Sequence record: MK562504.1 | Source: Enterobacteria phage CHB7 | Strand: one strand, 5' to 3' | Length of the DNA stretch: 64,000 bases | Part shown: positions 1-55,943 of the stretch, piece by piece | Layout of the letters: the number at the start of each line of letters is the position of its first letter | How positions within the stretch are numbered: position 1 is the stretch's first letter | Notes under the pieces: generated by a model | What the model was told of the DNA's origin: nothing | Seen by the model: only the letters and a program-made list of their open reading frames with translations | The model's database searches: none | Position numbers and translations under genes: made by a program

Positions 1-257
1 TCAAAGACATAACCAACAAAGGCATCTACACCAACAGCTACTGAAGCCAGAGCCAGTTGACGGTTATTCAGAAGCAGTTCAACCTGTGAGCGAAATGCTG
101 ACTCATCAGAAATCTCTGCATTAACCTGATAAGATTCAGGAGTTACTTGTGAACTGAATGTATTGCTACGCATAACTATAGCAAGGCTTTCAACAGTGTT
201 CAGCATAAAGTTGCTATCAATACCTTTAGAGGCCAGCATTTCATTTACAGTAGTCAT
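1..257 (-). CDS. hypothetical protein, partial (N-terminal part; 3' end lies beyond window start)
   Basis: ATG at 255-257 on minus strand; frame open to position 3 (hand translation, no stop). Confidence 0.4.
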   Translation of the reverse strand, partial: MTTVNEMLASKGIDSNFMLNTVESLAIVMRSNTFSSQVTPESYQVNAEISDESAFRSQVELLLNNRQLALASVAVGVDAFVGYVF

Positions 258-258
258 A

Positions 259-681
259 TTAATTCTCTCTCATTTTGTTAAGTGTTTGTCGTGATAACTT
301 TAAGCTTTCTGTAGATGAAAAGTCAAGAACTTTTTCAGACCTTGGGAAGTAATGCCTATCCCATGAACTCTCTACATCGCTAATCAGTGTTGCTAGGTTA
401 TCTAAGTCTGTTCCGTTTTGCAACTTCTTTTTTAAAGAATCTATCAAGAAGAGTGTATCTTTTGCTTTACGCCTCTCAGCCGATATCTCCTTCATATGCT
501 CAAATACTGAACATTTCATTCTCTCATCGTAACCCTCGGAGAGTTCAATCTCATGTTGAACATCAACCATTCGACGATGATGGTAAGCGTATTCCTTTTG
601 AGCAGCAATGTCAAGTCCTTCCAACTTTTTTAAAGCTCTCATGAAGTCAGCTATGTCTGGGTGAACAAACATTCTCTGCAT
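259..681 (-). CDS. hypothetical protein
   Basis: 140 aa ORF in track; no recognised motif. Confidence 0.5.
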   Translation of the reverse strand: MQRMFVHPDIADFMRALKKLEGLDIAAQKEYAYHHRRMVDVQHEIELSEGYDERMKCSVFEHMKEISAERRKAKDTLFLIDSLKKKLQNGTDLDNLATLISDVESSWDRHYFPRSEKVLDFSSTESLKLSRQTLNKMREN

Positions 682-11467: not shown

Positions 11468-13813
11468 TTATGCCGTTCTAACCCAAGCCATCAATCTGAT
11501 AAACATATTTACAACACTGAATGCAGAACCAGAACCAGTACCACCAGTGTTACCACTCAATGTGTGGCTGTGAGCACCAATACCAACTGTATGCGTGTGA
11601 GCACCAGCGGAAGCAGCAGTACCACTAACTGAGTGGGTGTGAGCACCAGCGGAACCAGTGTTGATGTTCCCATAGTTGGTTTTAGAACCAGCACCAACAT
11701 AACCAGTATATTCACCATTCCACGTCTGGTGAGCAGCCATACCATGAACGTGAGCACCAGCGGAAGCAGCAGTACCTGAAACACCATGTGTGTGAGCACC
11801 AGTGCTGTTGGAGGTCTTAGTACCATAGTCGAAGCTTGATGTTGTCGCTGAGAAGCTATGGGTGTGTGAAGGGATGTTGCCTACAGCTAATGTCACAGTA
11901 TCTGCACCACCAGTAGTTTTAACATCTGAACCGTTTGCTGCACCGATTCTGACAGTTCTACCAACACCTTCATTTAGATACGTCCAAGTTAATCCCGGAA
12001 GGGTAGTGTTAGGGTTCTGGTTAGTTGCAAACCATGTTACAATACCAACTGGATAAATCTTCTTAAGGTCTGTAGAGTTAGTGATAGCAGCAGAAATTTT
12101 AGCATCAGTTTCTGCCTTAGTGTATGCACCTACATCTCCAGCAGATGGTTTATCAGTTGAGGTGTAAATCTTAGACCAATCTACCTCGAACCCAAAAGCG
12201 TCTCTTGAAGACCTGTAGAAGATACCACCATTTTTGTAGTTGAAACGCAACTGTGCAGAAGGGCATGAACCCTGTGCTTGGTAGAGTTGCAGAATCATCT
12301 GTGAACCACCACCAACAAGGACATTATACAGCCCTGACTTAGCATTCCAAGGAACTGCGTTAAAATCTGTTGAAGTATATGCACCAGTTGCACCAGCTAA
12401 CATAAATCTTGAGTTAGCAGCAGACTGTGTAAAGTATCGTGCATCAAAGTTACCCCAATCAGAAGGTTGAACCTGTCCAGTAATTGCCAAAGTTTTGTTT
12501 GCAGTGATTGTTGAGCCAAGTGTTAGCGTTGAACCATCCACATAGTTTGACAAAACAAGGTTGTTATTGTTGGCACTTCCATTACCCACATACCATCTCA
12601 TGGTTCCATCGGAATCAACACCTCTCAAGTAAAGAGCGGCCTGTTTTGTTGCATTTTTCAGCATCAAAGCTTCATTATCAGATGTGATATTTTGCTTTAC
12701 GCTGAAGTTGTTTGTTGCGTTAACTCTTGCCAAACTCGATAGTGTTCCGGCAGGAATAAATCTTGAATCAATATTAGTCCAGTCACTAGGTTGAACCTGT
12801 CCAGTAATTGCAAGACTCTTGTTAACTCTTACCATATTGTCAAGTAATACGTAGGTATCGTTTGAGATATTTGTTAAGACAACTGAGTTGCTACCATCTG
12901 CATAGTTACCTACAGCCCACTTCATAGAAGCATCTGTGTTCTGACCTTCAATATAAAGTGCTTTACCACTTGTCAAGTTCTTAAGAGTTAATCTTGCACC
13001 GTCACCAAGTAACGTTGTAGTCCCTCTGAAGGTGTTGTTTCCAGTAATCGTGTTAGCTGCTGCCAACTGAACAAATCTTTGGTCTGCTGCATCACGAGTA
13101 TAGAATCTTGCATCGAAGTTTGCAAAGTCTGAAGGAACAACCTGTCCAGTAACTTGAAGCTGTTTGTTAATCCCTACAGAGCCAGTGCCAAGAACAATAT
13201 TAGTGTTCTGTTTGGTGTTTGCAATAGTAACATCAGAACCAGAACTCAAGTTACCAATTGTGAATCTTACTGCATTTGCTGTATCACGACCTTCATAATA
13301 CAATGCAGCAGCCGCAGTGTTCTTTAAAGTTAAACCTGCATTGTCTGTCTGAAAAATCTGACTTGCTGTGAAGGTGTTTTGAGTTCCCTTGATAGCAAAC
13401 CTTGCATCATTCTCATCATTAGTTCTCATCCCAAGTTCATTAGGGGATGGCTTATTCAGAGTATGGTAAACTGTTGCATTTCTTGAAGCATCTGCAATAG
13501 TCAGTTTAAGACCATTTGCATTAAGCTTGAAAGTTTTTGCAGTGTCACCGAAGACAATTTCAGAGTTACCTGTTGGGTCAAGTAAATCTTTTCCTCCATA
13601 GGTAAGCTTGACAATCCCTAAATTACCTGTCATGGTTCCACCAACTAATTGCAGAAATCTTTCCAGCTTGAAAGATGCAAGGAAATCTGCATAAGTCATT
13701 CTACGGTCTTCATCACCTAACATCTCAGTTCTTTTCTTAACTCTGACATGTAATAGGTCATCAGAACGAATTTCGTTAATCGAGTTCAGTTCACTCAATT
13801 TAAATTCTGCCAT
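11468..13813 (-). CDS. tail fibre protein with C-terminal tail-collar-like HxH repeat domain
   Basis: 781 aa; C-terminal repeats of GAHTHSVSGTAASAGAHTH and terminal GSGSAF...MAWVRTA; RBS AAGAGG. Confidence 0.8.
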   Translation of the reverse strand: MAEFKLSELNSINEIRSDDLLHVRVKKRTEMLGDEDRRMTYADFLASFKLERFLQLVGGTMTGNLGIVKLTYGGKDLLDPTGNSEIVFGDTAKTFKLNANGLKLTIADASRNATVYHTLNKPSPNELGMRTNDENDARFAIKGTQNTFTASQIFQTDNAGLTLKNTAAAALYYEGRDTANAVRFTIGNLSSGSDVTIANTKQNTNIVLGTGSVGINKQLQVTGQVVPSDFANFDARFYTRDAADQRFVQLAAANTITGNNTFRGTTTLLGDGARLTLKNLTSGKALYIEGQNTDASMKWAVGNYADGSNSVVLTNISNDTYVLLDNMVRVNKSLAITGQVQPSDWTNIDSRFIPAGTLSSLARVNATNNFSVKQNITSDNEALMLKNATKQAALYLRGVDSDGTMRWYVGNGSANNNNLVLSNYVDGSTLTLGSTITANKTLAITGQVQPSDWGNFDARYFTQSAANSRFMLAGATGAYTSTDFNAVPWNAKSGLYNVLVGGGSQMILQLYQAQGSCPSAQLRFNYKNGGIFYRSSRDAFGFEVDWSKIYTSTDKPSAGDVGAYTKAETDAKISAAITNSTDLKKIYPVGIVTWFATNQNPNTTLPGLTWTYLNEGVGRTVRIGAANGSDVKTTGGADTVTLAVGNIPSHTHSFSATTSSFDYGTKTSNSTGAHTHGVSGTAASAGAHVHGMAAHQTWNGEYTGYVGAGSKTNYGNINTGSAGAHTHSVSGTAASAGAHTHTVGIGAHSHTLSGNTGGTGSGSAFSVVNMFIRLMAWVRTA

Positions 13814-13855: not shown

Positions 13856-14497
13856 TTAAGCAGTTCTTTGCCATACATACAGTACGAAAGATGGCTGTTC
13901 AACGTTGAATGCCTGCCCAGAACCAGTTGACCCTGTTGTACCAGAGTGGGAATGTTCACCTGCTCCAGTGACAGATACAGACACATTGTGATTATGTGAA
14001 CCAATAGCCACTGTGTGACTGTGAGAGCCGATTGCCACTGTATGTGTATGAGCACCAGCATTAGCCGCAGTACCACTCACTGAGTGAGTATGGTTACCAG
14101 CAGCCTGAGTATCAGACCAGTAAGCCACTTTTGGTGTGTAGTCATCACCAGATGTGTAGATACCCCCACCACCAGAGTTAACCTCACCTTCTGGAACCTT
14201 GTGAGTGTGGTTACCAGCAGTTGCCGCAGTACCACTAACCGAGTGTGTGTGAGCACCAGCATTGCTGGTCGTCTTTGTACCATAGTCAAAGGTAGTTGAA
14301 GACTTAGTACCATAGTCAAATGCGCTGATAGACACACTAGTACCGTGTGAGTGACCACCGCCTGTAACATACACTGAGTGAGTGTGAGCAGGAATATTGT
14401 TTGCAGTCAAAGCCACAGTTTGGGAACCAAATGTGGAACCTGCTGGTCTAGCTGCACTGTCCACTAGTACCGTGTGAGTGACCACCGCCTGTAACAT
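13856..14497 (-). CDS. tail fibre, C-terminal portion (tail-collar HxH domain) of a gene split by a 127 bp duplication
   Basis: 213 aa ORF; shares the 42 aa block DSAARPAG...HSHGTS with the upstream ORF; no RBS before its ATG. Confidence 0.55.
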   Translation of the reverse strand: MLQAVVTHTVLVDSAARPAGSTFGSQTVALTANNIPAHTHSVYVTGGGHSHGTSVSISAFDYGTKSSTTFDYGTKTTSNAGAHTHSVSGTAATAGNHTHKVPEGEVNSGGGGIYTSGDDYTPKVAYWSDTQAAGNHTHSVSGTAANAGAHTHTVAIGSHSHTVAIGSHNHNVSVSVTGAGEHSHSGTTGSTGSGQAFNVEQPSFVLYVWQRTA

Positions 14498-14588
14498 ACA
14501 CTGAGTGAGTGTGAGCAGGAATATTGTTTGCAGTCAAAGCCACAGTTTGGGAACCAAATGTGGAACCTGCTGGTCTAGCTGCACTGTC
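14335..14588. repeat. perfect tandem duplication, 2 x 127 bp
   Basis: 14335-14461 and 14462-14588 are identical by direct reading; unit length is not a multiple of 3. Confidence 0.85.
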
Positions 14589-15167
14589 ATAACCCACAAG
14601 TGCTCTACCTTTTGATACTAGCTCCCAAGTACCTCCACAAATCAAGTAAGTGGATGGGTTAGCAGCATTCATAGACAAGTGAATAGTCCCAACTGGATAT
14701 GAAGCCTGAACAGCCCTGTATAGACTATTAACTGCTCTTGCTGTAGCATACTTATCAGCATCTTCATTATATGCGTTAGAAGCTAACCAGTTCTGCACAT
14801 TACCTAAACCGACTTGTGATTTAGTTGTGTTGTGAGGGTTATTCTTATCATTAATGTGAGCCTGAATAAGTTGGTTAACTTCATCAGAAGACATGATTTG
14901 CAAGTTTGCTCTTGCTTCAGCGACGTCAACGATATCTGATAGGTTGTTTGCAGCGACAAGCTGTAAAGCGTTTAATACGTTACCTAATTCAACCTGAACC
15001 TTTGTAACGCCGTGAGGGTTATTTCTCAATGATGCGTGTGGGTCAAGTAATTGTTCAAGTGTACACCTCTTATCCTCAATACCTTGTTTAAGGTGGAAGA
15101 TATCACTTAGCTCAATTGGTAACGATGCTTGAGGCAAGGCACTAATTTGAATTTCACCTACTGCCAT
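14448..15167 (-). CDS. tail fibre, N-terminal portion (truncated after the duplication junction)
   Basis: 239 aa; reads the first repeat copy in frame, then ends GQCS-stop inside the second copy. Confidence 0.55.
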   Translation of the reverse strand: MAVGEIQISALPQASLPIELSDIFHLKQGIEDKRCTLEQLLDPHASLRNNPHGVTKVQVELGNVLNALQLVAANNLSDIVDVAEARANLQIMSSDEVNQLIQAHINDKNNPHNTTKSQVGLGNVQNWLASNAYNEDADKYATARAVNSLYRAVQASYPVGTIHLSMNAANPSTYLICGGTWELVSKGRALVGYDSAARPAGSTFGSQTVALTANNIPAHTHSVYVTGGGHSHGTSGQCS

Positions 15168-23454: not shown

Positions 23455-23865
23455 TTACTGAGAAGTTAGGCTTTTGAAAATGCTTGCTTCGAAAAAACTT
23501 CCGAAATTAGCCTCCAGAGCAAATGCCAAGAAGTCAATAAATTCACCGTAGTTTGCTTGGAAGTATTTATCTACGTTTAGAGGGAAGTCATCTACAGTTG
23601 CACCTTGGAATAGCAGAGCAGCCATTGAGTCAATATCGAGTTCATCAATACGGTCAAAGCAAGCTTCAACTAATTCTTTGAAAGGTACTGCTGTCACACT
23701 TTCTTCACCTTCTTTCTGCTCTTTCCCAGATAAACTTGAAAACATCTGAGCAATTGTCGGTACAACAACTTTACCGAGTTTCATCGACATTTTAATACCA
23801 TCTCTTGCACCCAGCAGGACAATATTCACTTTCTTACCATTAATAATTTTGCATTCTGTCTTCAT
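23455..23865 (-). CDS. tail assembly chaperone
   Basis: 136 aa acidic protein between tube and tape measure. Confidence 0.5.
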   Translation of the reverse strand: MKTECKIINGKKVNIVLLGARDGIKMSMKLGKVVVPTIAQMFSSLSGKEQKEGEESVTAVPFKELVEACFDRIDELDIDSMAALLFQGATVDDFPLNVDKYFQANYGEFIDFLAFALEANFGSFFEASIFKSLTSQ

Positions 23866-23945
23866 TGTGATTCCTTAAATTTCTTAGGTTCTATAAACGA
23901 AAAAAAGGGAAGACCTTTTACAGTCTCCCCCTTATTAGGATGTTC

Positions 23946-35867: not shown

Positions 35868-35944
35868 TGGCGGGTTAGTGGGATTTGAACCCTCTTCTCA
35901 TGTTTTTCAGACATGCGCTTTAACCATATAAGCTACTTAACCCA
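35868..35944 (-). tRNA. tRNA-Phe (GAA)
   Basis: Loop CUGAAAA; 3' end ambiguous by about 2 nt. Confidence 0.6.
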
Positions 35945-35951
35945 TTAAATT

Positions 35952-36028
35952 TGGGGTGACCTACGGGAATCGAACCCGTATAGACCATGTTCACAGCATG
36001 GGTCATTATCCATTTATGATAAGGCCAC
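35952..36028 (-). tRNA. tRNA-His (GUG)
   Basis: Loop CUGUGAA; C73; perfect T stem. Confidence 0.65.
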
Positions 36029-36059
36029 ATGTAAGGACTCTCGTAAGAACCCTTAGAAG

Positions 36060-36135
36060 TGGCAGCAGCGTAAGGATTTGAACCTTAATCTTTCAGCTTC
36101 AGAGGCTGGAGCATTGCCAGTTATGCTACACTGCT
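36060..36135 (-). tRNA. tRNA-Gln (CUG)
   Basis: Loop CUCUGAA; G73. Confidence 0.55.
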
Positions 36136-36142
36136 ATTAATT

Positions 36143-36221
36143 TGGTACTCCATATCGGATTCGAACCGATACATAACACAGATTTTAAGTCTGGCCTCTC
36201 TGCCAATTGGAGTAATGGAGC
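36143..36221 (-). tRNA. tRNA with Leu anticodon UAA, standard length (short variable region)
   Basis: Loop CUUAAAA; A73; about 79 nt, no long variable arm. Confidence 0.5.
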
Positions 36222-36223
36222 AT

Positions 36224-36299
36224 TGGCGGGGGATGTTGGAATTGAACCAACTTCTTCGATTTCAAAGACCGAGGTTTTAACCTTGTAAACTAATCCCCT
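36224..36299 (-). tRNA. tRNA-Gln (UUG)
   Basis: Stem TCGGT/ATCGA, loop CUUUGAA; G73. Confidence 0.6.
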
Positions 36300-36307
36300 T
36301 TAAATCT

Positions 36308-36865
36308 TTACTTTCTTAGTGGATGAATAAAGAATGCCAACATAATTCTTTCCCTTGAAAATGCTCTTTCTTCTGGGACAACACTTTTAAGTTTCCAACC
36401 AACATAAATTCTCCAGTAAAATTGTTTACCAAAGATTTTAATTGACGGGATAAAAGCGAATAAACCCCAAGCATTACTGTTCCACATCAGGAGATAACCT
36501 GTCTGATTATCTTCAGGGTTAGAACTTACGTTGATATTACCTTTCCACTTAGTAACATCTTTTACATCTCTTCCTAATACATGGTAAGAGAAGTTATAAG
36601 CTTTGTTTCTCCAGAGCCATCCAACTCTCTGCATATAAACACCGAGCTTACCAATCTTTCGAATCTTAGCCCATCGTTCAACGTGACCTTTGTCACCATC
36701 AATTGGGTTGTCATAAGTTTCCATCCATCTGAATCCAAAAGGTAAGTGACCTTTCTTCTCACTGTAGAATGGAACCACAAATGGTGCTAAGATTACTGCT
36801 AAGATTGCTGCAAATGGCTCTAGCAAAGCTAGGAAAATCCATGAAGCATACTTCAAATATCTCAT
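36308..36865 (-). CDS. membrane protein, hypothetical
   Basis: ATG 36863-36865 with AGAGG RBS; N-terminal hydrophobic segment; track ORF extends upstream from TTG into tRNA-Arg. Confidence 0.5.
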   Translation of the reverse strand: MRYLKYASWIFLALLEPFAAILAVILAPFVVPFYSEKKGHLPFGFRWMETYDNPIDGDKGHVERWAKIRKIGKLGVYMQRVGWLWRNKAYNFSYHVLGRDVKDVTKWKGNINVSSNPEDNQTGYLLMWNSNAWGLFAFIPSIKIFGKQFYWRIYVGWKLKSVVPEERAFSRERIMLAFFIHPLRK

Positions 36866-36885
36866 TTTAAATAGCCTCTTTAAAT

Positions 36886-36962
36886 TGGTGCAGAATAAGG
36901 GATTCGAACCCCTAACAAACAACTTCGTAGGTTGCTGCTCTATCCGTTTGAACTAATTCTGC
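36886..36962 (-). tRNA. tRNA-Arg (ACG)
   Basis: Loop CUACGAA; perfect 7 bp acceptor GCAGAAT/ATTCTGC. Confidence 0.65.
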
Positions 36963-37124
36963 AATGTTCTTTTGAGATTCCTGTCTAGCTCTCTTCTTAT
37001 CTCTTCTGAGAAAGCGTCTACGATGGTCTGTACGCCATTTGTAGTAATCTTCCTCACCAGCGTGAGAAGCACAGCAACCACAACTTGCAATTTCAACTTT
37101 ACCGTGTCTACCATAAGGCTTCAT
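36912..37124 (-). CDS. small basic Cys-containing ORF overlapping tRNA-Arg (doubtful)
   Basis: ATG with AGGAG RBS right after the preceding tRNA; last 51 nt overlap tRNA-Arg. Confidence 0.3.
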   Translation of the reverse strand: MKPYGRHGKVEIASCGCCASHAGEEDYYKWRTDHRRRFLRRDKKRARQESQKNIAELVQTDRAATYEVVC

Positions 37125-37140
37125 AGGAATCTCCTAAAAT

Positions 37141-37218
37141 TGGTGTTCCAAGACGGATTCGAACCGTCACTAATACAAGGTTTGAGCTTGCATCCTCTGC
37201 CAATTGGGATACTGGAAC
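37141..37218 (-). tRNA. tRNA with Leu anticodon CAA, standard length (short variable region)
   Basis: Stem GCAAG/CTTGT, loop CUCAAAC; A73; D-arm similar to the UAA tRNA. Confidence 0.5.
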
Positions 37219-37220
37219 AT

Positions 37221-37295
37221 TGGTACTCGCTGAAGGACTTGAACCTTCTTCACCAACTTGTAAGGATGGGGCTTTACCATATAAACTAAGCGAGT
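37221..37295 (-). tRNA. tRNA-Val (UAC)
   Basis: Loop CUUACAA; A73. Confidence 0.6.
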
Positions 37296-37391
37296 ATGAA
37301 AAGAGGTCTGAAGTTGTGCCGCTAACTCAACTCCGTGGAATTTGTTACGGTCTTCAGTTGACTCAAGCGGTCTTTCACTCGACCTCTGAAA

Positions 37392-37468
37392 TGGTGCTGC
37401 TCACAGGACTCGAACCTGCATTTCCATCCTTACAAGGGATGTGTAATAGCCAATTATACGAAAGCAGC
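37392..37468 (-). tRNA. tRNA-Thr (UGU)
   Basis: Stem CATCC/GGATG, loop CUUGUAA; A73. Confidence 0.65.
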
Positions 37469-37474
37469 ATTGTT

Positions 37475-37549
37475 TGGAGCATCCAGAGGGAATCGAACCC
37501 TCAACCTCAGTTTGGAAGACTGTAATTTTCCCGTTTAAACTATGGATGC
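37475..37549 (-). tRNA. tRNA-Gly (UCC)
   Basis: Loop CUUCCAA; U73; perfect T stem. Confidence 0.65.
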
Positions 37550-37555
37550 ACTAAT

Positions 37556-37631
37556 TGGTGGAGAAGCAGGGAATTGAACCCTGTACTTAAGTTTGCAAAA
37601 CTTATGTTTTAACCATGTAAACTACATCCCC
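37556..37631 (-). tRNA. tRNA-Ala (UGC)
   Basis: Stem TAAGT/ACTTA, loop UUUGCAA; G3-U70 wobble pair; A73. Confidence 0.7.
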
Positions 37632-37637
37632 AATGTT

Positions 37638-37713
37638 TGGTACAGGTGGAGGGAATTGAACCCATCGTCTTACTGATTAAGAGTCAGCCGCATAACCATT
37701 TTGCTACACCTGC
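37638..37713 (-). tRNA. tRNA-Lys (CUU)
   Basis: Loop CUCUUAA; A73. Confidence 0.55.
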
Positions 37714-37720
37714 ATTAATT

Positions 37721-37798
37721 TGGTAGGAGACAAGGGATTCGAACCCTCAAACACCAACTTCTAAGGATGGTAGGTTTACCAATTACCGTCAATCTCCC
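37721..37798 (-). tRNA. tRNA with Leu anticodon UAG, standard length (short variable region)
   Basis: Loop CUUAGAA; A73; about 78 nt. Confidence 0.45.
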
Positions 37799-37866
37799 AT
37801 TAAATCTTTGTAGAGAACTGCTAAGACGCCAAAGCAACAATGGTATCAAATGCCTTAACAATTCTC

Positions 37867-37887
37867 TAAAAAGACCTAACTGGTCTT
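37867..37887 (-). terminator. hairpin downstream of nuclease gene (weak terminator)
   Basis: AAAGACC-loop-GGTCTTT followed by U-rich tail on the minus strand. Confidence 0.35.
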
Positions 37888-38026
37888 TGCATAGTCTTGT
37901 TTAATCCGGTGACTAGAACCTTTGGAGAGCTTGATATTATCTCTTCTCCGTGACACCTACTAGGTGCTTTGTTGTGCGTGTACGACAATACACGAGGGAA
38001 ACCGAACGCTGTACCAGAGCGTGGGC

Positions 38027-38368
38027 TTAAATCTTTAAGCTAAGTTCAGTCTTGGACTTGACATCTTTAGCTTTGTAGATGACGACTTTATCAAGTGGTT
38101 CAATGTAAACAGCTAAGTAATCAACTTGAGAGTTATCAAAATTCATTATTCTATTTTCATTCTTGTTAGAACGAACTCTTTTCAGTTGCACTCTCCAAAG
38201 TTCACCTCTTTTGACTGATGTTGATTTTACCTCAACAGTCTCAATCAAACCATCTTTGTGAACTAGAAAGTCATACTTTGCATTATCTGTAGCTGGTGAA
38301 TACACTTCATAACCTCTTTTGAGGAAAGCTAATTGTGTAGCAATTTCACCTACTGAACCTTTCTTCAT
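38027..38368 (-). CDS. PD-(D/E)XK nuclease-like protein embedded in tRNA cluster
   Basis: ATG 38366-38368 with AAGGTGGTGA RBS; YDFLVHKDGLIETVEVKS resembles a D...ExK nuclease core. Confidence 0.5.
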   Translation of the reverse strand: MKKGSVGEIATQLAFLKRGYEVYSPATDNAKYDFLVHKDGLIETVEVKSTSVKRGELWRVQLKRVRSNKNENRIMNFDNSQVDYLAVYIEPLDKVVIYKAKDVKSKTELSLKI

Positions 38369-38390
38369 AATCACCACCTTAAAATTATTT

Positions 38391-38477
38391 TGGCAGAGAG
38401 TGCAGGAGTTGAACCCGTACCGTTTCCAGCAGCACCAGTTTTCAAGGCTGGTTGGTCTCCGTTGACCGCCACTCTCT
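38391..38477 (-). tRNA. tRNA-Ser (UGA), long variable arm
   Basis: Loop CUUGAAA; perfect acceptor AGAGAGT/ACTCTCT; G73; 87 nt. Confidence 0.65.
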
Positions 38478-38490
38478 CCGAAACAATCTT

Positions 38491-38573
38491 TGGCATGGGA
38501 CGGAGGAATCGAACCCCTTTGAGTAAGTTTTGGAGGCTTACGCACATGCCTTAGTGTCTTAACATCGTCCCAT
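38491..38573 (-). tRNA. tRNA-Trp (CCA), atypical 83 nt with enlarged D region
   Basis: Anticodon hairpin GTAAG-(C)CUCCAAA(A)-CTTAC; perfect acceptor; G73; extra nt between acceptor and D stem. Confidence 0.45.
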
Positions 38574-38715
38574 ATATTATTTCGAAGCTTACCGTATTAT
38601 CACAACACTGTAAAGCCCCTTCTCAGATTATTTACATGTTCTGGAAAACATGAGATACAGACCACCTCCCTACAGGAAGACCCGCTTAGGTCGTCTAAGT
38701 AATCTGCTAACTATT

Positions 38716-38743
38716 TGGTAGCCAAGGTAGGAGTCGAACCTAC
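38716..38743 (-). pseudogene. tRNA 3' fragment (CCA + acceptor + T arm only)
   Basis: TGG-T-AGCCAAG followed by T arm GTAGG-AGTCGAA-CCTAC; no matching 5' acceptor strand found within 100 nt. Confidence 0.4.
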
Positions 38744-38842
38744 TTACTCTCGAAGGTAGCTAACCTTCAGTAACTTTCCGACTTTCGTACATCTGTTAAC
38801 ATGTATTCAGATGGCTTACTAGTGTTGTCTTGACCATTAAAC

Positions 38843-38919
38843 TGGCACACCCTACAGGACTCGAACCTGTAACTCAGTGCTTAGAAGGCACTTGCTCTAT
38901 CCAATTGAACTAAGGGTGC
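38843..38919 (-). tRNA. tRNA-Arg (UCU)
   Basis: Loop CUUCUAA; G73. Confidence 0.65.
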
Positions 38920-43284: not shown

Positions 43285-43868
43285 CCGTAAGTTTTAATTA
43301 TAATAGTGATGGCTCTGTATCCGTCACTTCACCTTATGCAAATGACCTCTTAAAAGAGTTGGTTAATCAGTGTGGAAGAGGTATGCACTACGTACCTGAC
43401 ACTTTTAAACAGAAGACAATTGCAAATAACCTGATGCGTGTGACGGTATGTAATGTGAACCCTTCATACGACCTAAGCGAAGAATGTCCATATTCCTTGA
43501 TGGCTCTTGGTGCAGAAAGTAAGTTTAAACTTGTCTGTCACGACGCTGAAACCTTCCTAAAGGTCTTCTCAAATCTTATCCATAATGACAAGTACACTTA
43601 TGTTGATGGCTCTGTATCATTCTACCCAGCAAACTACACATGCGTTCTTGTGGACAATATGAGAAGTGGTGGCATGACACCTACAGATATCTCGTTTGAT
43701 GTGAACACTACACCAGACGCAACTCCAAGCAATGATTTCGACATGGATTACGCACTTGCTTTGAGTAAGAAATCTGAGTTCATTGAGTATGTCAATGGAT
43801 TCGGCTTTAAGTTTGATGAGACTATGAATCTCAAAAAGCTTAAAAACCTGCTTAAGACTAAAGCTTAA
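43278..43868 (+). CDS. hypothetical protein
   Basis: 196 aa ORF. Confidence 0.5.
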   Translation: MLTVSFNYNSDGSVSVTSPYANDLLKELVNQCGRGMHYVPDTFKQKTIANNLMRVTVCNVNPSYDLSEECPYSLMALGAESKFKLVCHDAETFLKVFSNLIHNDKYTYVDGSVSFYPANYTCVLVDNMRSGGMTPTDISFDVNTTPDATPSNDFDMDYALALSKKSEFIEYVNGFGFKFDETMNLKKLKNLLKTKA

Positions 43869-44288: not shown

Positions 44289-45165
44289 GGCAAAAACATA
44301 TCCAGACTTCAAAGAGTTCGTTAAAGGCTTTATTGCGAACGTTAAAGCTGGTAAAAGATATGACTTCAGAACATATCAAGAAGCAATTCTCCCACTGACT
44401 TACAGTTCGCCTTGGCCTGAAGCAGATATTGCAGAGGTGACCAACTTTGCTTATGAGCCAGCATATACAGTCCCATTCAGTCCAGAACTTCTTTACAGTG
44501 TTGGTGCTCAAATGAGAACTGCTGATTTCTTCATGGATTTGCAGTATGCAATCATCAACGGTAAAGATGTTGATACGGTTTACTGTGAATGGCTTGCAAG
44601 AGTTAAACCTTTCTCAATGCTGAACGCAAAACTGAAAGATTCTGTAGTTCCTCCAGTAATCACTACACAGCCAACTAACCAGACTGTTAATGAAGGTGGT
44701 ACGTTGACTCTGAGTGTTGTTGCAACTGGTGCTACAGGTTATCAATGGAAGAAAGGTGCAAGTAACATCTCCGGTGCAACGTCTGCAACTTACACAAAAA
44801 CAAACGTAGTCCCTGCTGATGCTGGTTCTTACACTTGTGTAGTAACTGGTGAAGGTGGTGCAACTGTAACGTCAAACGCTGCAACTGTGACGGTGAATGC
44901 TTTACCAGTAATCACTACACAGCCACAAAACGTTGAAATCACTGAAGGTGACACTCTTGAGTTGAGCATTGTGGCTACTGGAGCAACTGGTTACCAGTGG
45001 AAGAAAGGTGCTGACAACATCTCTGGAGCAACTTCAGCAACTTACACAAAAGAGAATGCAACAACTGCTGACGATGCCGGAACGTACACTTGCGTAGTTA
45101 CTGGTGCAGGTGGTTCTGTAACGTCAAACGCAGCTACTGTTGTGGTTAACGAAGTAGGAGGTTAA
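44281..45165 (+). CDS. protein with two tandem Ig-like domains
   Basis: Two about 80 aa repeats (PVITTQP...GATGYQWKKGA.NISGATSATYTK...AG.YTCVVTG.GG..TSNAATV.VN) with the G-x-Y-x-C Ig-like signature. Confidence 0.6.
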   Translation: MIKAKTYPDFKEFVKGFIANVKAGKRYDFRTYQEAILPLTYSSPWPEADIAEVTNFAYEPAYTVPFSPELLYSVGAQMRTADFFMDLQYAIINGKDVDTVYCEWLARVKPFSMLNAKLKDSVVPPVITTQPTNQTVNEGGTLTLSVVATGATGYQWKKGASNISGATSATYTKTNVVPADAGSYTCVVTGEGGATVTSNAATVTVNALPVITTQPQNVEITEGDTLELSIVATGATGYQWKKGADNISGATSATYTKENATTADDAGTYTCVVTGAGGSVTSNAATVVVNEVGG

Positions 45166-49529: not shown

Positions 49530-49943
49530 ATGAAACATTTAGTTGGAAAAGTTCTGAATGTCAAACACATATTGACTGGCGAGCATATAACATCTGTCAA
49601 GGTTCAGAAAGTAAATGATGATGCTAACTACCCAATCTTCTGCACTGTCATTGAAGATTTCATGGTTGATGGTTTCCATTATGCAGAAGGTGAGTACTTG
49701 ACGTTTGATAAAGAAGGTAAGTGGCGTGGCAAAAACCATTCAGAGGTAAGTGATTTTGACATGGTTCTTGATATTACATCAGGTGATTCTAAGACTGTTG
49801 AAATTCTGATGAGTGATTATGAAGAACAAGTTATGAAGGTTGCTGTAGATGTTGATATGGCTGCTGAACTACTTGTACCACATCTGAAATCTGGTAAACT
49901 CTCTTTGGAAACTTTTGAGAAGATTGTTAAAGGTAAACTATGA
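49530..49943 (+). CDS. hypothetical protein
   Basis: 137 aa ORF. Confidence 0.5.
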   Translation: MKHLVGKVLNVKHILTGEHITSVKVQKVNDDANYPIFCTVIEDFMVDGFHYAEGEYLTFDKEGKWRGKNHSEVSDFDMVLDITSGDSKTVEILMSDYEEQVMKVAVDVDMAAELLVPHLKSGKLSLETFEKIVKGKL

Positions 49944-50404: not shown

Positions 50405-51021
50405 AGACTATGCTAATCACTGAACAGCATTGGGAAATGATAAAGTTTACTGTAAAGACACTGAAAGGGTTTGGTATGACTAAAGAATTTGAGTTAGAGA
50501 GAAAGTACTTGGTACTAAGTTTGGAAGATATTGACAACTATCTTTCACCGGAATGTAGAGACCAGCTTCAACAAATTGTAATGTCACTGAGACATTCAAG
50601 AGAGTTTGTAGATGGTAAAGAGCCACTAAAAGGTATCTTTGTTAAGGAGTCTTATCCGTTCTATAAAGACACTTTGCAGAAACTTGAAATGTATGTTAAA
50701 CAGCAGAACCGTAAAGAGTTCACTATGGTTTCTCTTGGTGGACAACAAATGCTTGTGATGGAAGATATCAACCCTAAACGAGTTAACAGAGGTGTTTGTA
50801 TCAAGGTCACAGGTAAAGAAGAGTTCATTGATGCTACGTACCTAAGCCACATCTTTGAAGGTGGAAGTGCAGTATTGAACCTGAATGAATATCACATCAG
50901 TTCACATCCAATTAAGGGTGACCAGATAATGCTTCAGGTAAGAGAACGTCACAATGGATTCACACACTTCTTCCAGACGACTAAGACCTCGTTGAGAGCA
51001 ATGCTCAAAGAAGTGATGTAA
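50401..51021 (+). CDS. hypothetical protein
   Basis: 206 aa ORF; last gene of plus block. Confidence 0.5.
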   Translation: MKTMLITEQHWEMIKFTVKTLKGFGMTKEFELERKYLVLSLEDIDNYLSPECRDQLQQIVMSLRHSREFVDGKEPLKGIFVKESYPFYKDTLQKLEMYVKQQNRKEFTMVSLGGQQMLVMEDINPKRVNRGVCIKVTGKEEFIDATYLSHIFEGGSAVLNLNEYHISSHPIKGDQIMLQVRERHNGFTHFFQTTKTSLRAMLKEVM

Positions 51022-51027
51022 AGCTAT

Positions 51028-51058
51028 ACAGCCCCTTTATTGGGGCTTTTTTATTTTC
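51028..51058 (+). terminator. rho-independent terminator
   Basis: AGCCCC-TTTATT-GGGGCT hairpin followed by TTTTTTATTTT. Confidence 0.7.
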
Positions 51059-51139
51059 TTATAAAATTTGGATTCACTCCGTTCATCTTGGGTCACCATA
51101 TCATGTGATAAAATATCTACCCTTCTTAGTAGCCTACTT

Positions 51140-51400
51140 AATCTTACTCTCTATATAGTTATATAGTACTATATAGTATCTTAGTCCCTTAGCAGTGAGT
51201 CTCTATAGCCCTCTGTATAACCCTTCTAAATAGCCCTCTATAAAGCCCTCTAATCAATCCTCTTCCAAACCTATACAATCACCTTAACCATCTCTTCATA
51301 GCCCCTTAGAAGCCCCTATACCCATCTTAATCTCTAGGTAAATGATAGTACCCTCTATAGGGTGTTCACTAGGTTCTACTAATCCTCTATATAGACTGTT
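51140..51400. repeat. cluster of short TATAG-containing repeats (CTCTATAG / CCCTCTATAA / TATATAGTA)
   Basis: Three tandem TATATAGTA units at 51150-51180; GAGTCTCTATAGCCC, CCCTCTATAAAGCCC, CCCTCTATAGGGTG, CCTCTATATAGACTG further on. Confidence 0.6.
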
Positions 51401-51699
51401 TTAGCTAACTAAACAGGTATCACCTTCTAAGGCTTATCCTACAAGGTCTAACACGGTACTAACAAGGTATCTTATAAGCCTGTATTTACCTGTTTTATAC
51501 AGAATACTATATAGATATTTATGCAATTCTTTAGTATTTCGTTTAGAAATATCTAAACTCATAAATTTTTATAAAATAGAACTGTCAAGTCACTTTTTAG
51601 GTGTTATGAAGGAACTCAAAAATATCTGTCTAGGATGTATATCTGCTTGGTAGCCCTTAACATCGCCCTTACAAGTCCTTTGCAAAATCTTAAAATATC

Positions 51700-52210
51700 A
51701 TTAACAATTTCTTAACAACTCTCTCAAGCTCTTAACATCTCTTCAGAGTTCTTAACAGATTCTTAACAGGACTAACAAGGGTGTAACAAGTTTCTAACAA
51801 GTGCTACATAGTCTTTACAGAATCTTAACAGATTGCTAACAAGTGCTAATTAGTTAATTTTAAAGGGTTATTTTGTTAAGATAATTAACAAGTTCCTAAC
51901 AAGTGTTTAACCTTTTTAACAAGCTGTTAACATGGTCACTATCTCTGGTCTTATCGTTCCCTTACCTTCTTAGTGATTCTCTAAACATCCTCTTAAAAGC
52001 TCTCTATAGCTCTATACAGCCTCTTTATAGCCCCTTGTAAGGTAACTATAGCCCAAGTAACTACAAAGGGTTTTATAGGGCTTTCTAGGGGCTTTAAAGG
52101 GTATGCCAAAGAGTCTAACAAGAGTTTAACAAGGTCTTAACAATGATTTAACATACCCCTAACAAGGGTAACTATGCAGGAGTTGTTAAGAATTTGTTAA
52201 GAAAATGTTA
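51700..52210. repeat. iteron-like array of more than 20 TAACA(A/G) words
   Basis: Direct copies at about 10-12 bp spacing over 51701-51924 (CTTAACA, CTAACAAG, GTAACAAG); second cluster 52105-52155; inverted copies (TTGTTAAG) 52173-52205. Confidence 0.7.
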
Positions 52211-52225
52211 AGGGGGCTAGCATAT

Positions 52226-52291
52226 ACGTAACTTTTAAGCCCCTTTTACGTAACTTCATAGCCCCTTTTACGTAACTTTTAAGCTACTTTT
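52226..52291. repeat. 3 x 22 bp tandem repeat (ACGTAACTTTTAAGCCCCTTTT family)
   Basis: Units 52226-52247, 52248-52269, 52270-52291 with 2-4 substitutions each. Confidence 0.7.
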
Positions 52292-52327
52292 AAGCCCCTA
52301 TAACATACTTTTTAGTGACTATCAATA

Positions 52328-52670
52328 GGATTCGATAGAGTCCTATCTTATAGGGGATTGTTTAGATATTCACAAGATACTAGCCAGCATATAAGCTTAT
52401 ACCCTTATAAGATTCTTTTAAGGCTCTAGGAAGCTCTATAAAGGGCTTTAAAGAGTGGGTTAATATGATTGGTTAAGTTGAGATGATAAGCCGTTATAGA
52501 GCGTTATAGAGCGTTTAAGGGATTGCCCTTCCCTTTCGGGTTATGGGCTTATATTTAAGGGATTGGTAACAATACCAATTAGTTGATTTGATAAGAGAAT
52601 ATAGAGTAAACTATAGAGTTATTGTTCTAAATGTCTGGAAAGGGATTGTATAAGGATTCGATAGAGTCCT
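52328..52670. repeat. dispersed 17 bp repeat GGATTCGATAGAGTCCT (2 copies)
   Basis: Copies at 52328-52344 and 52654-52670; near-palindromic core. Confidence 0.6.
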
Positions 52671-52684
52671 GTCTCATAGACGTT

Positions 52685-52707
52685 AAAAAGCCCCATTTAA
52701 GGGGCTG
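52685..52707 (-). terminator. rho-independent terminator ending the small-gene array
   Basis: Minus-sense AGCCCC-TTAAAT-GGGGCT followed by TTTTT. Confidence 0.6.
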
Positions 52708-52747
52708 TTAAGGTATCTGGGGCTATTTGCCCCGATGCGGCGTCTTA

Positions 52748-52999
52748 TTAGTCATTGAAGCCGTTTTTGTTGTAGTAAAGAGTGATAATAGAATCACCCC
52801 AATAGTAAGTTGTAACGCCGTATTTTAAGACTTCCTGTTTTGTTTCTTTCCAGAAATTTTCTGACGGTTGATAGTCCTGAATAGTTGCTTTCAGACACAT
52901 TTCAATCATTCCGAAAGCATCACCAGTGCCTACCATGTCAAATTTAACATCTAAAACGTGAAAACCAAAGTTGTTAACAGTTGCGCGGATAGTTGCCAT
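52748..52999 (-). CDS. array gene 1, hypothetical
   Basis: 83 aa; preceded by type A cassette (GNRA hairpin + GGAGA RBS). Confidence 0.5.
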   Translation of the reverse strand: MATIRATVNNFGFHVLDVKFDMVGTGDAFGMIEMCLKATIQDYQPSENFWKETKQEVLKYGVTTYYWGDSIITLYYNKNGFND

Positions 53000-53064
53000 T
53001 TTTAGAATCTCCAGTTTAGGATTTTTGTTTAGTGGGGAAGTTTCCCTCCCCGTTGATAAGTACT

Positions 53065-53592
53065 TTACAGACTTTCGATTAACTGGTCAAGCCCTTTTTG
53101 CATATCTTTTAAGGATTTTTCATGTAATTTTATCATGTCGTTGATTGCTTGCCCTAACTGAAGAGAATAATCACCGTCTTTTGTTTCACTTGTATAGATG
53201 TTCTCTACATCATACAGATTAAAAGGATTGCACCCTGTACCCATTGCCTGAGTCCCAAAAGCCAACGGCATGATATACAAATTAAGAGACTTTATAGAGC
53301 GCTCATAAGCCATTTTATAGCGGTTAATCTCTTCTTTTGATGACTTGATGCAATGCTCGTAAAGTTCTGCAACTATAGCCATAAAATCCGGTAAAATCAT
53401 TGCAACTGCTTTCATAAAATTGTTTGCTGTTACAAGTTTTACATTTGGGCGATGAATGTAATATTTTTTATCACTTCCCTTTGTGATGACTGCAAAGAGT
53501 TTAGCATTACAACGGAATTCGAAAGTGTCTTTTACTGGTTTGGTCATTACGTCTTTTGAGCGGATAGTGTTAATTGCAGTGAACTTATTCAT
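53065..53592 (-). CDS. array gene 2, hypothetical
   Basis: 175 aa; stop codon embedded in conserved GTAAAGTACTT word. Confidence 0.5.
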   Translation of the reverse strand: MNKFTAINTIRSKDVMTKPVKDTFEFRCNAKLFAVITKGSDKKYYIHRPNVKLVTANNFMKAVAMILPDFMAIVAELYEHCIKSSKEEINRYKMAYERSIKSLNLYIMPLAFGTQAMGTGCNPFNLYDVENIYTSETKDGDYSLQLGQAINDMIKLHEKSLKDMQKGLDQLIESL

Positions 53593-53596
53593 CTTG

Positions 53597-53692
53597 ATTC
53601 TCCAGTTTAGGATTTTTGTTTAATGGGGAAGTTTCCCTCCCCGTTGATAAGTACTTTACTTGTTTTGATTTGCCTTTGCAAGCTTTTTATTG
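53597..53692. repeat. about 95 bp near-identical dispersed repeat (type A cassette + flank), copy 1
   Basis: Near-identical to 57052-57147; includes the 3' end of array gene 3. Confidence 0.7.
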
Positions 53693-53793
53693 AAAAAATA
53701 ATCTTGAATCTCACTTGCTATCAGCAGACCAAAAGGAATAACCACTGATACAATCATGCCACACAGAATAGGGTTTTTAATTACTTCCATCAT
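53656..53793 (-). CDS. array gene 3, small membrane peptide (45 aa)
   Basis: ATG with cassette RBS; hydrophobic ILCGMIVSVVIPFGLLIA; below track length cut-off. Confidence 0.4.
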   Translation of the reverse strand: MMEVIKNPILCGMIVSVVIPFGLLIASEIQDYFFNKKLAKANQNK

Positions 53794-53991
53794 TTTAGAA
53801 TCTCCAGTTTAGGAAAGCGTTATTGCTTGAGATAAACTATATAGACTTTGATGAGTCATTGCAAGTAATTCTTAAGCTTATCTATAAAGAATCTTTTAAG
53901 TGATTCCTTTTAGATAAACCCCCTCGAACAAAGTTACCAATGTCAAGGGGTATTGTCAAGATAATTTTTAATGTTTTTTGTAAGTCATTGA

Positions 53992-54333
53992 TTAGCTTAT
54001 AAAGATTTTTTCAGGCTTGACATAGGTTAATCTCTGTGATTTTAGTAAGTCACTCCAGATTAATCCCGCTATGTGACTATAACCCTTTTCACGTAGTTGT
54101 TTCATTGTCTCCGCTCTAGTTTCAAAGCGGCTTGCGTAGTATTCAGTGTTAAGGGTTGTTTTGTTTCCTTCGTTATCTGTATGCACAATTTGCATCACTT
54201 GAAAGGGGCTTACATCTTCTCCCCTGTTCCATTGCTCAAAGTACTTGAGACACTGCATAGGTTTCATTTTGTCGTTAACTTGGGTAGACCATGACGAATT
54301 TTCTTTATCAGTGATAATTGTTACATAGGCCAT
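53992..54333 (-). CDS. array gene 4, hypothetical
   Basis: 113 aa. Confidence 0.5.
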   Translation of the reverse strand: MAYVTIITDKENSSWSTQVNDKMKPMQCLKYFEQWNRGEDVSPFQVMQIVHTDNEGNKTTLNTEYYASRFETRAETMKQLREKGYSHIAGLIWSDLLKSQRLTYVKPEKIFIS

Positions 54334-54384
54334 TTTCAGATTCTCCAGTTTAGGATTGTTGGTAAAGCTCTTTATCTGGGGCTT

Positions 54385-54413
54385 AAGATACTAGCTTTTA
54401 AACCCCATGTAAA
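54385..54413 (-). promoter_or_regulatory. cassette type B promoter (TTTACA-17-TATCTT) overlapping a 9 bp stem hairpin
   Basis: Minus-sense TTTACA 54408-54413, -10 54385-54390; hairpin GGGGTTTAA/TTAAGCCCC spans spacer and -10. Confidence 0.5.
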
Positions 54414-54418
54414 GCACT

Positions 54419-54616
54419 TTAATAAATTCTATCCATCAGATTATTCACGGCCATAATTGCATTATCTTTGAAGTGTGGATGACTGCTATTCTGTGAGAAT
54501 AGTATTTCTCCATTGTATACTATTTTTAGGTCTATCTTTGAACCTTCCATGTTAAGGTTACACTCTACACCTTTTAAACACCACAAGGTAGAAAGTTTTT
54601 GCATCAGTGATAACAT
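54419..54616 (-). CDS. array gene 5, hypothetical
   Basis: 65 aa. Confidence 0.45.
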   Translation of the reverse strand: MLSLMQKLSTLWCLKGVECNLNMEGSKIDLKIVYNGEILFSQNSSHPHFKDNAIMAVNNLMDRIY

Positions 54617-54666
54617 TTTAGATTCTCCAGTTTAGGATTGTTGGTAAAGCTCTTTATCTGGGGCTT

Positions 54667-54695: not shown

Positions 54696-54707
54696 GCACT
54701 TTATTAG

Positions 54708-55938: not shown

Positions 55939-55943
55939 GCATT

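What the first reader, a model, noticed from the sequence alone, without database searches (positions are those of the whole stretch)
14335..14588. Perfect 127 bp tandem duplication frameshifts a tail-collar fibre gene into two ORFs
14335-14461 and 14462-14588 are identical. In minus sense each copy encodes DSAARPAGSTFGSQTVALTANNIPAHTHSVYVTGGGHSHGTS (42 codons) plus 1 nt, so the second copy is read +1 out of frame. The upstream ORF ends GQCS-stop just past the junction, and the downstream ORF (no RBS) carries the rest of the protein including the HxH receptor-binding-like domain. Removing one copy would restore a single fibre gene of about 394 aa. Perfect identity means a very recent event or an assembly artefact. 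If real, it is a reversible switch (repeat-mediated deletion restores the gene) that could toggle a host-range determinant.
Basis: seen in the sequence. Interest (0 to 1): 0.65.

Follow-up and report, generated by a model that had tools for sequence, protein, structure and literature searches.

The report
Assembler overlap artefact splitting a fibre gene
The perfect 127-base duplication that appears to break a phage tail-fibre gene is almost certainly a leftover SPAdes assembler overlap (k = 127), kept when the circular contig was re-opened, so it is a database error and not biology.

Summary
Window 14335-14461 and 14462-14588 are identical. 127 = 42 codons + 1 nt, so the gene reads as a 239-aa and a 213-aa ORF, and deleting one copy restores a 394-aa fibre protein.

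The interpretation as a real event or a reversible host-range switch is not supported. The window is phage CHB7 (MK562504.1). All three other accessible records of the same GenBank batch also carry exactly one perfect 127-nt repeat, each made of unrelated sequence:
- KPS64 has an internal tandem at 78186.
- Silverhawkium has an internal tandem at 23624, which creates a spurious "N-terminus" gene.
- Buco has its first 127 nt equal to its last 127 nt.

The two Ounavirinae records were re-opened at rIIA. [quoted passage not shown] Every relative examined has one copy and an intact gene: 292 phage records, 30 IMG/VR loci and the sister genomes. A control genome from another lab has no such repeat.

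Verdict: an untrimmed k-mer overlap joined in tandem when the contig was rotated. The real gene is an ordinary intact homologue of the Sf14 gp52 "short long-tail fibre". Its only value is for data curation.

The parts
14335..14461 (.). Copy 1 of the exact 127-nt unit. On the minus strand it is the second copy read, and it is in frame with the true C-terminal part of the fibre.
   Evidence: 100% identical to 14462-14588. A single homologous copy exists in mistaenkt at 49617-49736.
14462..14588 (.). Copy 2 of the exact 127-nt unit. On the minus strand it is the first copy read, and it is in frame with the N-terminal part. One of the two copies is surplus: the retained assembler overlap.
   Evidence: The alignment with SUSP2, mistaenkt and PC79-13 shows a clean 127-nt insertion relative to all three.
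14448..15167 (-). Upstream fragment ORF, 239 aa, ending ...HGTSGQCS*. Deposited as CHB7_gp59, 'hypothetical protein' (QBP33012.1 / UniProt A0A482JJW4).
   Evidence: ORF. (exact match to QBP33012.1, in a 90% cluster with the intact 375-382-aa orthologues).
13856..14497 (-). Downstream fragment ORF (longest reading 213 aa). True fibre sequence begins at the DSAARP... of copy 1. By accession arithmetic it is probably CHB7_gp58 (QBP33011.1).
   Evidence: The numbering inference comes: Buco's last protein is QBP32953, so CHB7 gp1 = QBP32954, gp57 = QBP33010 and gp59 = QBP33012.
13856..15167 (-). The real gene: a single fibre gene. After removing 127 nt it is 1185 nt, 394 aa. It is a homologue of the Sf14 gp52 / KPS64 gp59 'short long-tail fibre', with a Gp10_C domain and a T4 gp37-tip-like His-x-His region.
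   Evidence: end-to-end alignment with the 382-aa orthologues. (PF21939, 71 bits against a cut-off of 27). (68% identity to KPS64 gp59 over the full length). (PDB 2XGF, T4 gp37 tip, E = 8e-25; T4 gp10 2FKK/5HX2). (phrog_2097 tail fiber, E = 5e-136).
11468..13813 (-). Neighbouring long tail fibre (781 aa, CHB7_gp57, QBP33010.1). This is context, not part of the artefact.
   Evidence: Synteny with SUSP2, mistaenkt and PC79-13 and with KPS64 and Silverhawkium.

Best explanation
The duplication is a finishing artefact of the deposited genome (Enterobacteria phage CHB7, MK562504.1), not a feature of the phage. A de Bruijn assembler run with a largest k of 127 (the SPAdes maximum) emits a circular or circularly permuted genome as a linear contig whose last 127 nt repeat its first 127 nt. 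The authors then re-opened the genome so that base 1 lies at rIIA, which required joining the old contig ends. The overlap was not trimmed, so the two copies ended up head to tail at the place where the raw contig happened to begin, here inside the fibre gene. 127 is not a multiple of 3, so gene callers split the gene into two CDSs (gp58 and gp59). The true genome is 127 nt shorter (87,871 bp) and encodes one intact 394-aa fibre. Shown here: the repeat, its length, the one-copy state in relatives, the same 127-nt signature in every sister record, and the re-opening of the sister records. Inferred: that SPAdes k = 127 was the assembler setting, and that CHB7's own record starts at rIIA.
For: (1) The length is exactly 127 nt, the identity is 100%, and there is no spacer.
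(2) The window is CHB7 (accession from PMC13015707).
(3) Each of the three other accessible records of the batch MK562502-05 has exactly one exact 127-nt repeat and no other long exact tandem. KPS64 has an internal tandem at 78186-78312/78313-78439. Silverhawkium has an internal tandem at 23624-23750/23751-23877. In Buco the first 127 nt equal the last 127 nt, and 127 is the longest prefix that recurs.
(4) The four units are unrelated in sequence (best local score 15 or less out of 127), and each is single-copy in the other genomes.
(5) KPS64 and Silverhawkium start at base 1 with the rIIA CDS, so they were re-opened. In CHB7 the long fibre is the 57th CDS, as in Silverhawkium.
(6) Silverhawkium's duplication produces an annotated 'similar to SUSP1 gp48 N-terminus' mini-gene next to the full gene. 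This is the same kind of annotation damage.
(7) At the KPS64 site, relatives 98.6% identical span 773-775 nt for a 901-nt query, which is 127 nt less.
[quoted passage not shown] It also describes a standard workflow of removing the 127-bp terminal repeat and then re-opening to match a reference (PMC8104045). The same lab uses SPAdes in a later paper (PMC12160474).
(9) The fibre gene is one intact ORF in 292 phage records and in 30 IMG/VR loci of 357-402 aa, none with a long exact tandem.
(10) Negative control: the complete mistaenkt genome and about 230 kb of other relatives' loci show no exact tandem longer than 24 nt.
(11) There is no microhomology at the junction.
Against: No reads were available, so copy number in the phage stock was not measured directly. 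The isolation paper (Doore et al. 2019, Virology 538:45) is not in the held library, so the assembler and k used for CHB7 are inferred and were not read. CHB7's own GenBank record is absent from the searchable collection, so its start point is inferred from gene numbering. Real tandem duplications of about 100 nt do occur in phage genomes. Buco belongs to a family that can have true short terminal repeats, and KPS64's duplication lies in a repeat-rich early region, so each single case alone would be weaker than the set of four.
Confidence: 0.96

Rival explanations
1. A genuine, very recent 127-nt tandem duplication in the sequenced CHB7 stock. It inactivates the short fibre and can revert by repeat-mediated deletion.
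For: The sequence as deposited has the structure such a switch would have: perfect direct repeats and a frameshift. Sf14-type phages carry two fibre sets (PMC11821841), so loss of one might be tolerated. The distal half of this fibre is mosaic and clearly evolves by recombination.
Against: This reading requires the length to equal SPAdes' maximum k by coincidence. It also requires three further records from the same batch to carry one exact 127-nt repeat each, at unrelated sites, by coincidence. No relative has two copies or diverged copies. There is no junction microhomology. No second assembly contains this junction or this allele.
Confidence: 0.03
2. The two ORFs are both real products, for example a fibre made of two polypeptides, or a programmed -1/+1 frameshift that reads through the junction.
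For: The two ORFs overlap by 50 nt, and the downstream one has an in-frame ATG at 14497.
Against: The first 12 residues of the downstream ORF are out-of-frame translation of copy 2 and have no homologue. Each fragment would duplicate the same 42 residues. Orthologues are single 357-402-aa proteins without exception. The split falls inside the Gp10_C domain (match 154-271). The duplication is explained by the pipeline artefact.
Confidence: 0.01

Closest known systems
SPAdes k-mer terminal overlap on circular or circularly permuted contigs ('127 bp artificial overlaps', PMC5923482; removal followed by re-opening, PMC8104045)
   Same: An exact repeat whose length equals the largest k (127). It is found once per genome, at an arbitrary position, and in every genome of one pipeline. 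It is terminal in the un-rotated record (Buco).
   Different: In CHB7, KPS64 and Silverhawkium the overlap is no longer at the ends. It is internal and tandem, because the contig was rotated to start at rIIA without trimming. It therefore looks like a biological duplication and corrupts the gene calls.
Shigella phage Sf14 gp52, the shorter of two long tail fibres (cryo-EM, PMC11821841), and its orthologues KPS64 gp59 and SUSP2 ALH47185.1
   Same: The restored 394-aa protein is collinear over its full length: 68% identity to KPS64 gp59 and about 82% to the SUSP2, mistaenkt and PC79-13 orthologues. It has the same synteny (wedge genes, 104-aa ORF, short fibre, long fibre, holin) and the same Gp10_C domain.
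   Different: The central-distal segment (about aa 255-335) differs from the Suspvirus orthologues. It resembles the tip region of CHB7's own long fibre (51% over 105 aa) and the Mooglevirus architecture, which is ordinary fibre mosaicism.
T4 gp37 receptor-binding tip (PDB 2XGF) and T4 gp10 C-terminal domain (PDB 2FKK, 5HX2)
   Same: Sequence-level matches: residues 145-364 to 2XGF (E = 8e-25) and 143-234 to gp10 (E = 5e-5). Repeated His-x-His motifs are typical of metal-binding fibre needles.
   Different: The protein is much shorter than gp37. Its N-terminal 140 residues are Ounavirinae-specific. No structure was predicted or compared here.
Genuine fibre-switching systems (Mu/P1 G-segment inversion, diversity-generating retroelements, slipped-strand repeats)
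   Same: Only the superficial idea of toggling a receptor-binding protein.
   Different: No invertase, no inverted repeats, no reverse transcriptase or template repeat, and no short-unit repeat tract. The repeat here is a single, pipeline-specific 127-nt unit.

Membership tests
Untrimmed assembler k-mer overlap (SPAdes k = 127) joined in tandem on re-opening | The two copies are 100% identical and directly adjacent | tested here: met
Untrimmed assembler k-mer overlap (SPAdes k = 127) joined in tandem on re-opening | The repeat length equals an assembler k value (127 is the SPAdes maximum) | tested here: met
   The length is exactly 127, with 0-nt extension on either side. The 127-bp SPAdes overlap is documented in PMC5923482 and PMC8104045.
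Untrimmed assembler k-mer overlap (SPAdes k = 127) joined in tandem on re-opening | The same-length exact repeat occurs once in other genomes from the same pipeline, at unrelated positions and with unrelated sequence | tested here: met
   KPS64 at 78186, Silverhawkium at 23624, and Buco at its termini. The units are unrelated and single-copy elsewhere.
Untrimmed assembler k-mer overlap (SPAdes k = 127) joined in tandem on re-opening | The record was rotated relative to the raw contig | tested here: inconclusive
   Met for the sister records: base 1 is the end of the rIIA CDS in KPS64 and Silverhawkium. CHB7's own record is not available. The same start is inferred because the long fibre is the 57th CDS in both CHB7 and Silverhawkium.
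Untrimmed assembler k-mer overlap (SPAdes k = 127) joined in tandem on re-opening | Relatives, and genomes from other pipelines, are single-copy at the site and lack such repeats | tested here: met
Untrimmed assembler k-mer overlap (SPAdes k = 127) joined in tandem on re-opening | Reads support only one copy, and the Methods state SPAdes with k = 127 | not testable with these tools
   No read data are available. Doore et al. 2019 is not held. Only a later paper from the same lab names SPAdes.
Genuine tandem duplication acting as a reversible (repeat-deletion) switch | The two-copy form, or diverged copies, are present in independent isolates or assemblies | tested here: not met
   No junction or allele was found in IMG/VR, JGI metagenomes or GTDB genomes. 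All orthologues are one-copy.
Genuine tandem duplication acting as a reversible (repeat-deletion) switch | Short homology at the duplication end points, as expected for slippage or illegitimate recombination | tested here: not met
   0 nt of shared sequence at the boundaries.
Genuine tandem duplication acting as a reversible (repeat-deletion) switch | A mixed one- and two-copy population in the phage stock | not testable with these tools
   This needs reads or PCR.
Ounavirinae short long-tail fibre (Sf14 gp52 class) | Full-length collinear homology and conserved synteny next to the long fibre and the baseplate wedge genes | tested here: met
   This applies to the restored 394-aa protein only.
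Ounavirinae short long-tail fibre (Sf14 gp52 class) | A Gp10_C domain (PF21939) above Pfam's gathering score | tested here: met
   71 bits against a cut-off of 27, residues 154-271. PDB gp10 and gp37 matches.

The most novel reading that the evidence does not exclude
The 127-nt duplication is physically present in at least part of the CHB7 population, and its length matches SPAdes' k only by coincidence. In that case the phage would carry a knocked-out short fibre that reverts at high frequency by deletion between perfect repeats, giving a simple on/off toggle for one of its two fibre sets.
Probability: 0.02. Interest if true: 0.5.

Novelty: not a real feature. Interest (0 to 1): 0.05.

Why it matters
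Biologically it does not matter: CHB7 most likely has an ordinary intact short fibre.

It does matter for data hygiene. Four GenBank records (MK562502-MK562505) each carry a surplus 127 nt. At least two of them have spurious or split CDSs: CHB7 gp58/gp59, and Silverhawkium gp34, a spurious extra fragment. The 239-aa fragment has already propagated into UniProt (A0A482JJW4) and into protein clusters.

Comparative studies of fibre genes or host-range determinants that include CHB7 would score a false pseudogene.

For a genome scan, the practical lesson is a cheap filter. A single perfect tandem duplication, or a terminal repeat, whose length is 55, 77, 99 or 127 nt should be treated as an assembler overlap until reads say otherwise.

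Tried and rejected
(a) I looked for the two-copy junction in IMG/VR. I also looked for a 46-mer of this allele, which would detect one- or two-copy forms, in JGI metagenomes, IMG/VR and GTDB genomes. None was found, so there is no independent assembly of this phage to compare with.
(b) An exact-protein look-up of the restored 394-aa protein and of the 213-aa fragment found neither in the collection. The look-up of encoding contigs for the 239-aa fragment found nothing on record.
(c) I tried to read the isolation paper (PMC7009021 and its DOI); it is not held. Two papers that matched the search term 'CHB7' turned out not to contain it in the main text.
(d) I tried to fetch CHB7's own record and MK562501/MK562506; they are not in the collection.
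(e) I considered that the 127-nt units could be copies of a mobile or repeat element. This is rejected because the four units share no similarity.
(f) I considered a two-subunit fibre or a programmed frameshift. This is rejected because all orthologues are single ORFs and the split lies inside a domain.
(g) At the Silverhawkium site, megablast against other phages aligned only from the start of the second copy onward, because the left flank is divergent. That test was less clean than the KPS64 one.

Full report
**1. The observation**

The sequence is as described. TRF reports one array at 14335-14588 with period 127, 2.0 copies, 100% matches and score 508. A direct string comparison shows the two 127-nt blocks are identical and that identity stops exactly at the block boundaries, with 0 nt of extension on either side. 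This is the only perfect repeat in the 64-kb window; all other repeat families are 94% identical or less.

On the minus strand, 127 = 42 codons + 1 nt. The ORF that starts at 15167 therefore runs through the first copy, shifts frame in the second and stops at 14448 (239 aa...HGTSGQCS*). The rest of the protein lies in a second ORF ending at 13856. Deleting one copy gives a single ORF of 394 aa.

**2. What the gene is**

The window belongs to the Felix O1-like subfamily Ounavirinae, genus Suspvirus. The nearest records are mistaenkt, SUSP2, phiSUSP1, PC79-13, EP1 and EcSzw-1/2, at 94-96% identity over 25 kb. In all of them the orthologous position holds one intact gene of 375-382 aa between a 104-aa ORF and the long tail fibre.

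The restored CHB7 protein aligns with these from Met1 to the C-terminal ...YVWQRTA. At the DNA level the window shows a clean 127-nt insertion relative to all three relatives aligned. tblastn finds 292 phage records in which a single match covers at least 80% of the restored protein. Thirty IMG/VR loci all read as one uninterrupted ORF of 357-402 aa, with no long exact tandem.

The protein carries a Gp10_C domain (PF21939, 71 bits against a cut-off of 27, residues 154-271). It matches the T4 gp37 receptor-binding tip (PDB 2XGF, E = 8e-25) and T4 gp10. It belongs to phrog_2097 'tail fiber protein' (E = 5e-136). It is 68% identical over its full length to KPS64 gp59, which is the class of Sf14 gp52. 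In the Sf14 cryo-EM map that protein is the shorter of two long tail fibres and is predicted to carry a T4 gp10 C-terminus-like domain (PMC11821841). The duplicated 42 residues (aa 194-235) lie inside the Gp10_C match.

**3. Where the window comes from**

The 239-aa fragment is, residue for residue, QBP33012.1, 'hypothetical protein CHB7_gp59' of Enterobacteria phage CHB7, on an 87,998-bp contig. The long fibre is QBP33010.1 and the 285-aa wedge-region protein is QBP33014.1, gp61. The nucleotide accession is MK562504.1 (table in PMC13015707).

CHB7 was isolated together with KPS64 and Silverhawkium (Doore et al. 2019, cited in PMC11821841). The CHB7 record itself is not in the searchable phage collection, and the isolation paper is not held.

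**4. The decisive test: sister records of the same submission**

127 nt is the largest k-mer SPAdes uses. [quoted passage not shown] They also describe removing 127-bp terminal repeats before the genome is 'reopened to be syntenic' with a reference (PMC8104045). If the trimming step is skipped, re-opening places the two copies head to tail.

I therefore fetched the other accessible records of the batch and scanned them for exact tandem repeats with periods of 20-600 nt.

| Record | Phage | Exact 127-nt repeat |
|---|---|---|
| MK562502 | KPS64 | one internal tandem, 78186-78312 / 78313-78439 |
| MK562505 | Silverhawkium | one internal tandem, 23624-23750 / 23751-23877 |
| MK562503 | Buco (unrelated podovirus) | first 127 nt = last 127 nt; 127 is the longest prefix that recurs |

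KPS64 and Silverhawkium have no other long exact tandem, and Buco has no internal one.

So four of four records carry exactly one exact 127-nt repeat. It is terminal in the record left as the raw contig, and internal and tandem in the three that were re-oriented. The re-orientation is visible: KPS64 and Silverhawkium both begin at base 1 with the end of the rIIA CDS. In CHB7 the long fibre is the 57th CDS, as in Silverhawkium. The protein accessions run consecutively from Buco's last protein, QBP32953, so CHB7 gp1 = QBP32954 and gp57 = QBP33010.

The four units share no sequence similarity (best local score 15 or less out of 127). Each maps to a single-copy site in the other genomes, so the sisters act as one another's controls. 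At the KPS64 site, relatives 98.6% identical span 773-775 nt for a 901-nt query, which is exactly 127 nt less. In Silverhawkium the duplication produces an annotated mini-gene, 'similar to phage SUSP1 gp48 N-terminus', beside the complete gene. That is the same kind of annotation damage seen in CHB7.

As a negative control, the complete genome of mistaenkt (another lab) and about 230 kb of other relatives' loci contain no exact tandem longer than 24 nt.

**5. Mechanism**

The best explanation, with confidence about 0.96, runs as follows. The assembler emitted the circularly closed CHB7 genome as a contig that happened to start inside the fibre gene and ended with the same 127 nt. The authors rotated the sequence to start at rIIA, joining the old ends without removing the overlap. 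The join left two perfect copies, and gene callers then split the gene.

- Shown: the repeat and its length, the one-copy state in all relatives, the identical signature in every sister record, and the rotation of the sister records.
- Inferred: the assembler and k used in 2019, and the start point of the CHB7 record.

The true genome would be 87,871 bp.

**6. Rivals**

- A genuine recent duplication acting as a reversible switch (about 0.03). It has no support from relatives, from junction microhomology or from any second assembly.
- A two-polypeptide fibre or a programmed frameshift (about 0.01). This is contradicted by the uniform single-ORF orthologues and by the split lying inside a domain.

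**7. Comparison with what is known, and verdict**

This is a textbook case of a known artefact in a slightly disguised form: internal instead of terminal. It is not a real feature of the phage, and the underlying gene is an ordinary member of a known fibre family. Interest is low (0.05).

The useful outcome is curatorial. Four GenBank records need 127 nt removed. The fragment protein QBP33012.1 / A0A482JJW4 should be merged with its partner. Scans should flag perfect repeats of k-mer length (55, 77, 99, 127).

Noticed in passing
L047 (KPS64 MK562502.1), record 78186-78439: A perfect 127-nt tandem duplication lies between gp111 and gp112. The unit is 98% identical to a single-copy site in mistaenkt (1643-1768), and close relatives are 127 nt shorter here. 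This is the same artefact as in CHB7.
   Followed up: yes
L046 (Silverhawkium MK562505.1), record 23624-23877: A perfect 127-nt tandem duplication covers the 5' end of gp33. It creates the annotated mini-gene gp34, 'similar to SUSP1 gp48 N-terminus'. The homologous site in the window (159-273) is single-copy.
   Followed up: yes
L049 (Buco MK562503.1), record 1-127 and 43504-43630: The first and last 127 nt are identical, and no longer prefix recurs. This is probably an untrimmed assembler overlap and not a true terminal repeat, so the genome may be 43,503 bp with its real ends undetermined.
   Followed up: partly
window 13856-14330 (fibre aa about 250-335) versus window 11468-11850: The distal-central part of the short fibre differs from the Suspvirus orthologues (indels, low identity). 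It is 51% identical over 105 aa to the tip region (aa 657-752) of CHB7's own long fibre, and repeat family D4 links 14202-14298 with 11592-11841. This suggests mosaic exchange of receptor-binding modules between the two fibre genes or with Moogleviruses.
   Followed up: partly
window about 51020-52750: A 1.7-kb stretch has no ORF of 60 aa or more and holds three short tandem arrays (51200-51253, 51710-51757, 52225-52292). The two ends of the linear mistaenkt record map to about 52243-52256. KPS64 and Silverhawkium also annotate no CDS in the equivalent region. It could be a packaging, terminus or origin region, or simply where another lab opened its contig.
   Followed up: partly
L050/L051 (mistaenkt MN850587.1), record ends: The first 43 nt equal the last 43 nt of the record. 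This may be another small untrimmed overlap, or part of the annotated repeat_region 7-55. I did not investigate it.
   Followed up: no
window 53000-57850: Families of 68-112-nt intergenic repeats (D1-D3, 63-94% identical) recur between small early genes. The KPS64 duplicated unit belongs to this family (hits at window 53004, 53596, 57051). They are likely repeated promoter or terminator modules of the early region.
   Followed up: no
window 44691-45149: Two pairs of diverged direct repeats are spaced 252 nt apart (D7, D9; 72-78% identical). Such spacing could come from tandem Ig-like domains, so this might be the Hoc-like decoration gene: the Sf14 paper says CHB7 gp95 has two Ig-like domains and premature stops relative to Sf14 gp20. 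The gene at these coordinates was not identified here.
   Followed up: no
window 35900-38900: Repeat family D6 looks like the conserved arms of tRNA genes. The sister genomes annotate a cluster of more than 20 tRNA genes, and a published table lists 26 tRNAs for CHB7. I did not scan for tRNAs here.
   Followed up: no
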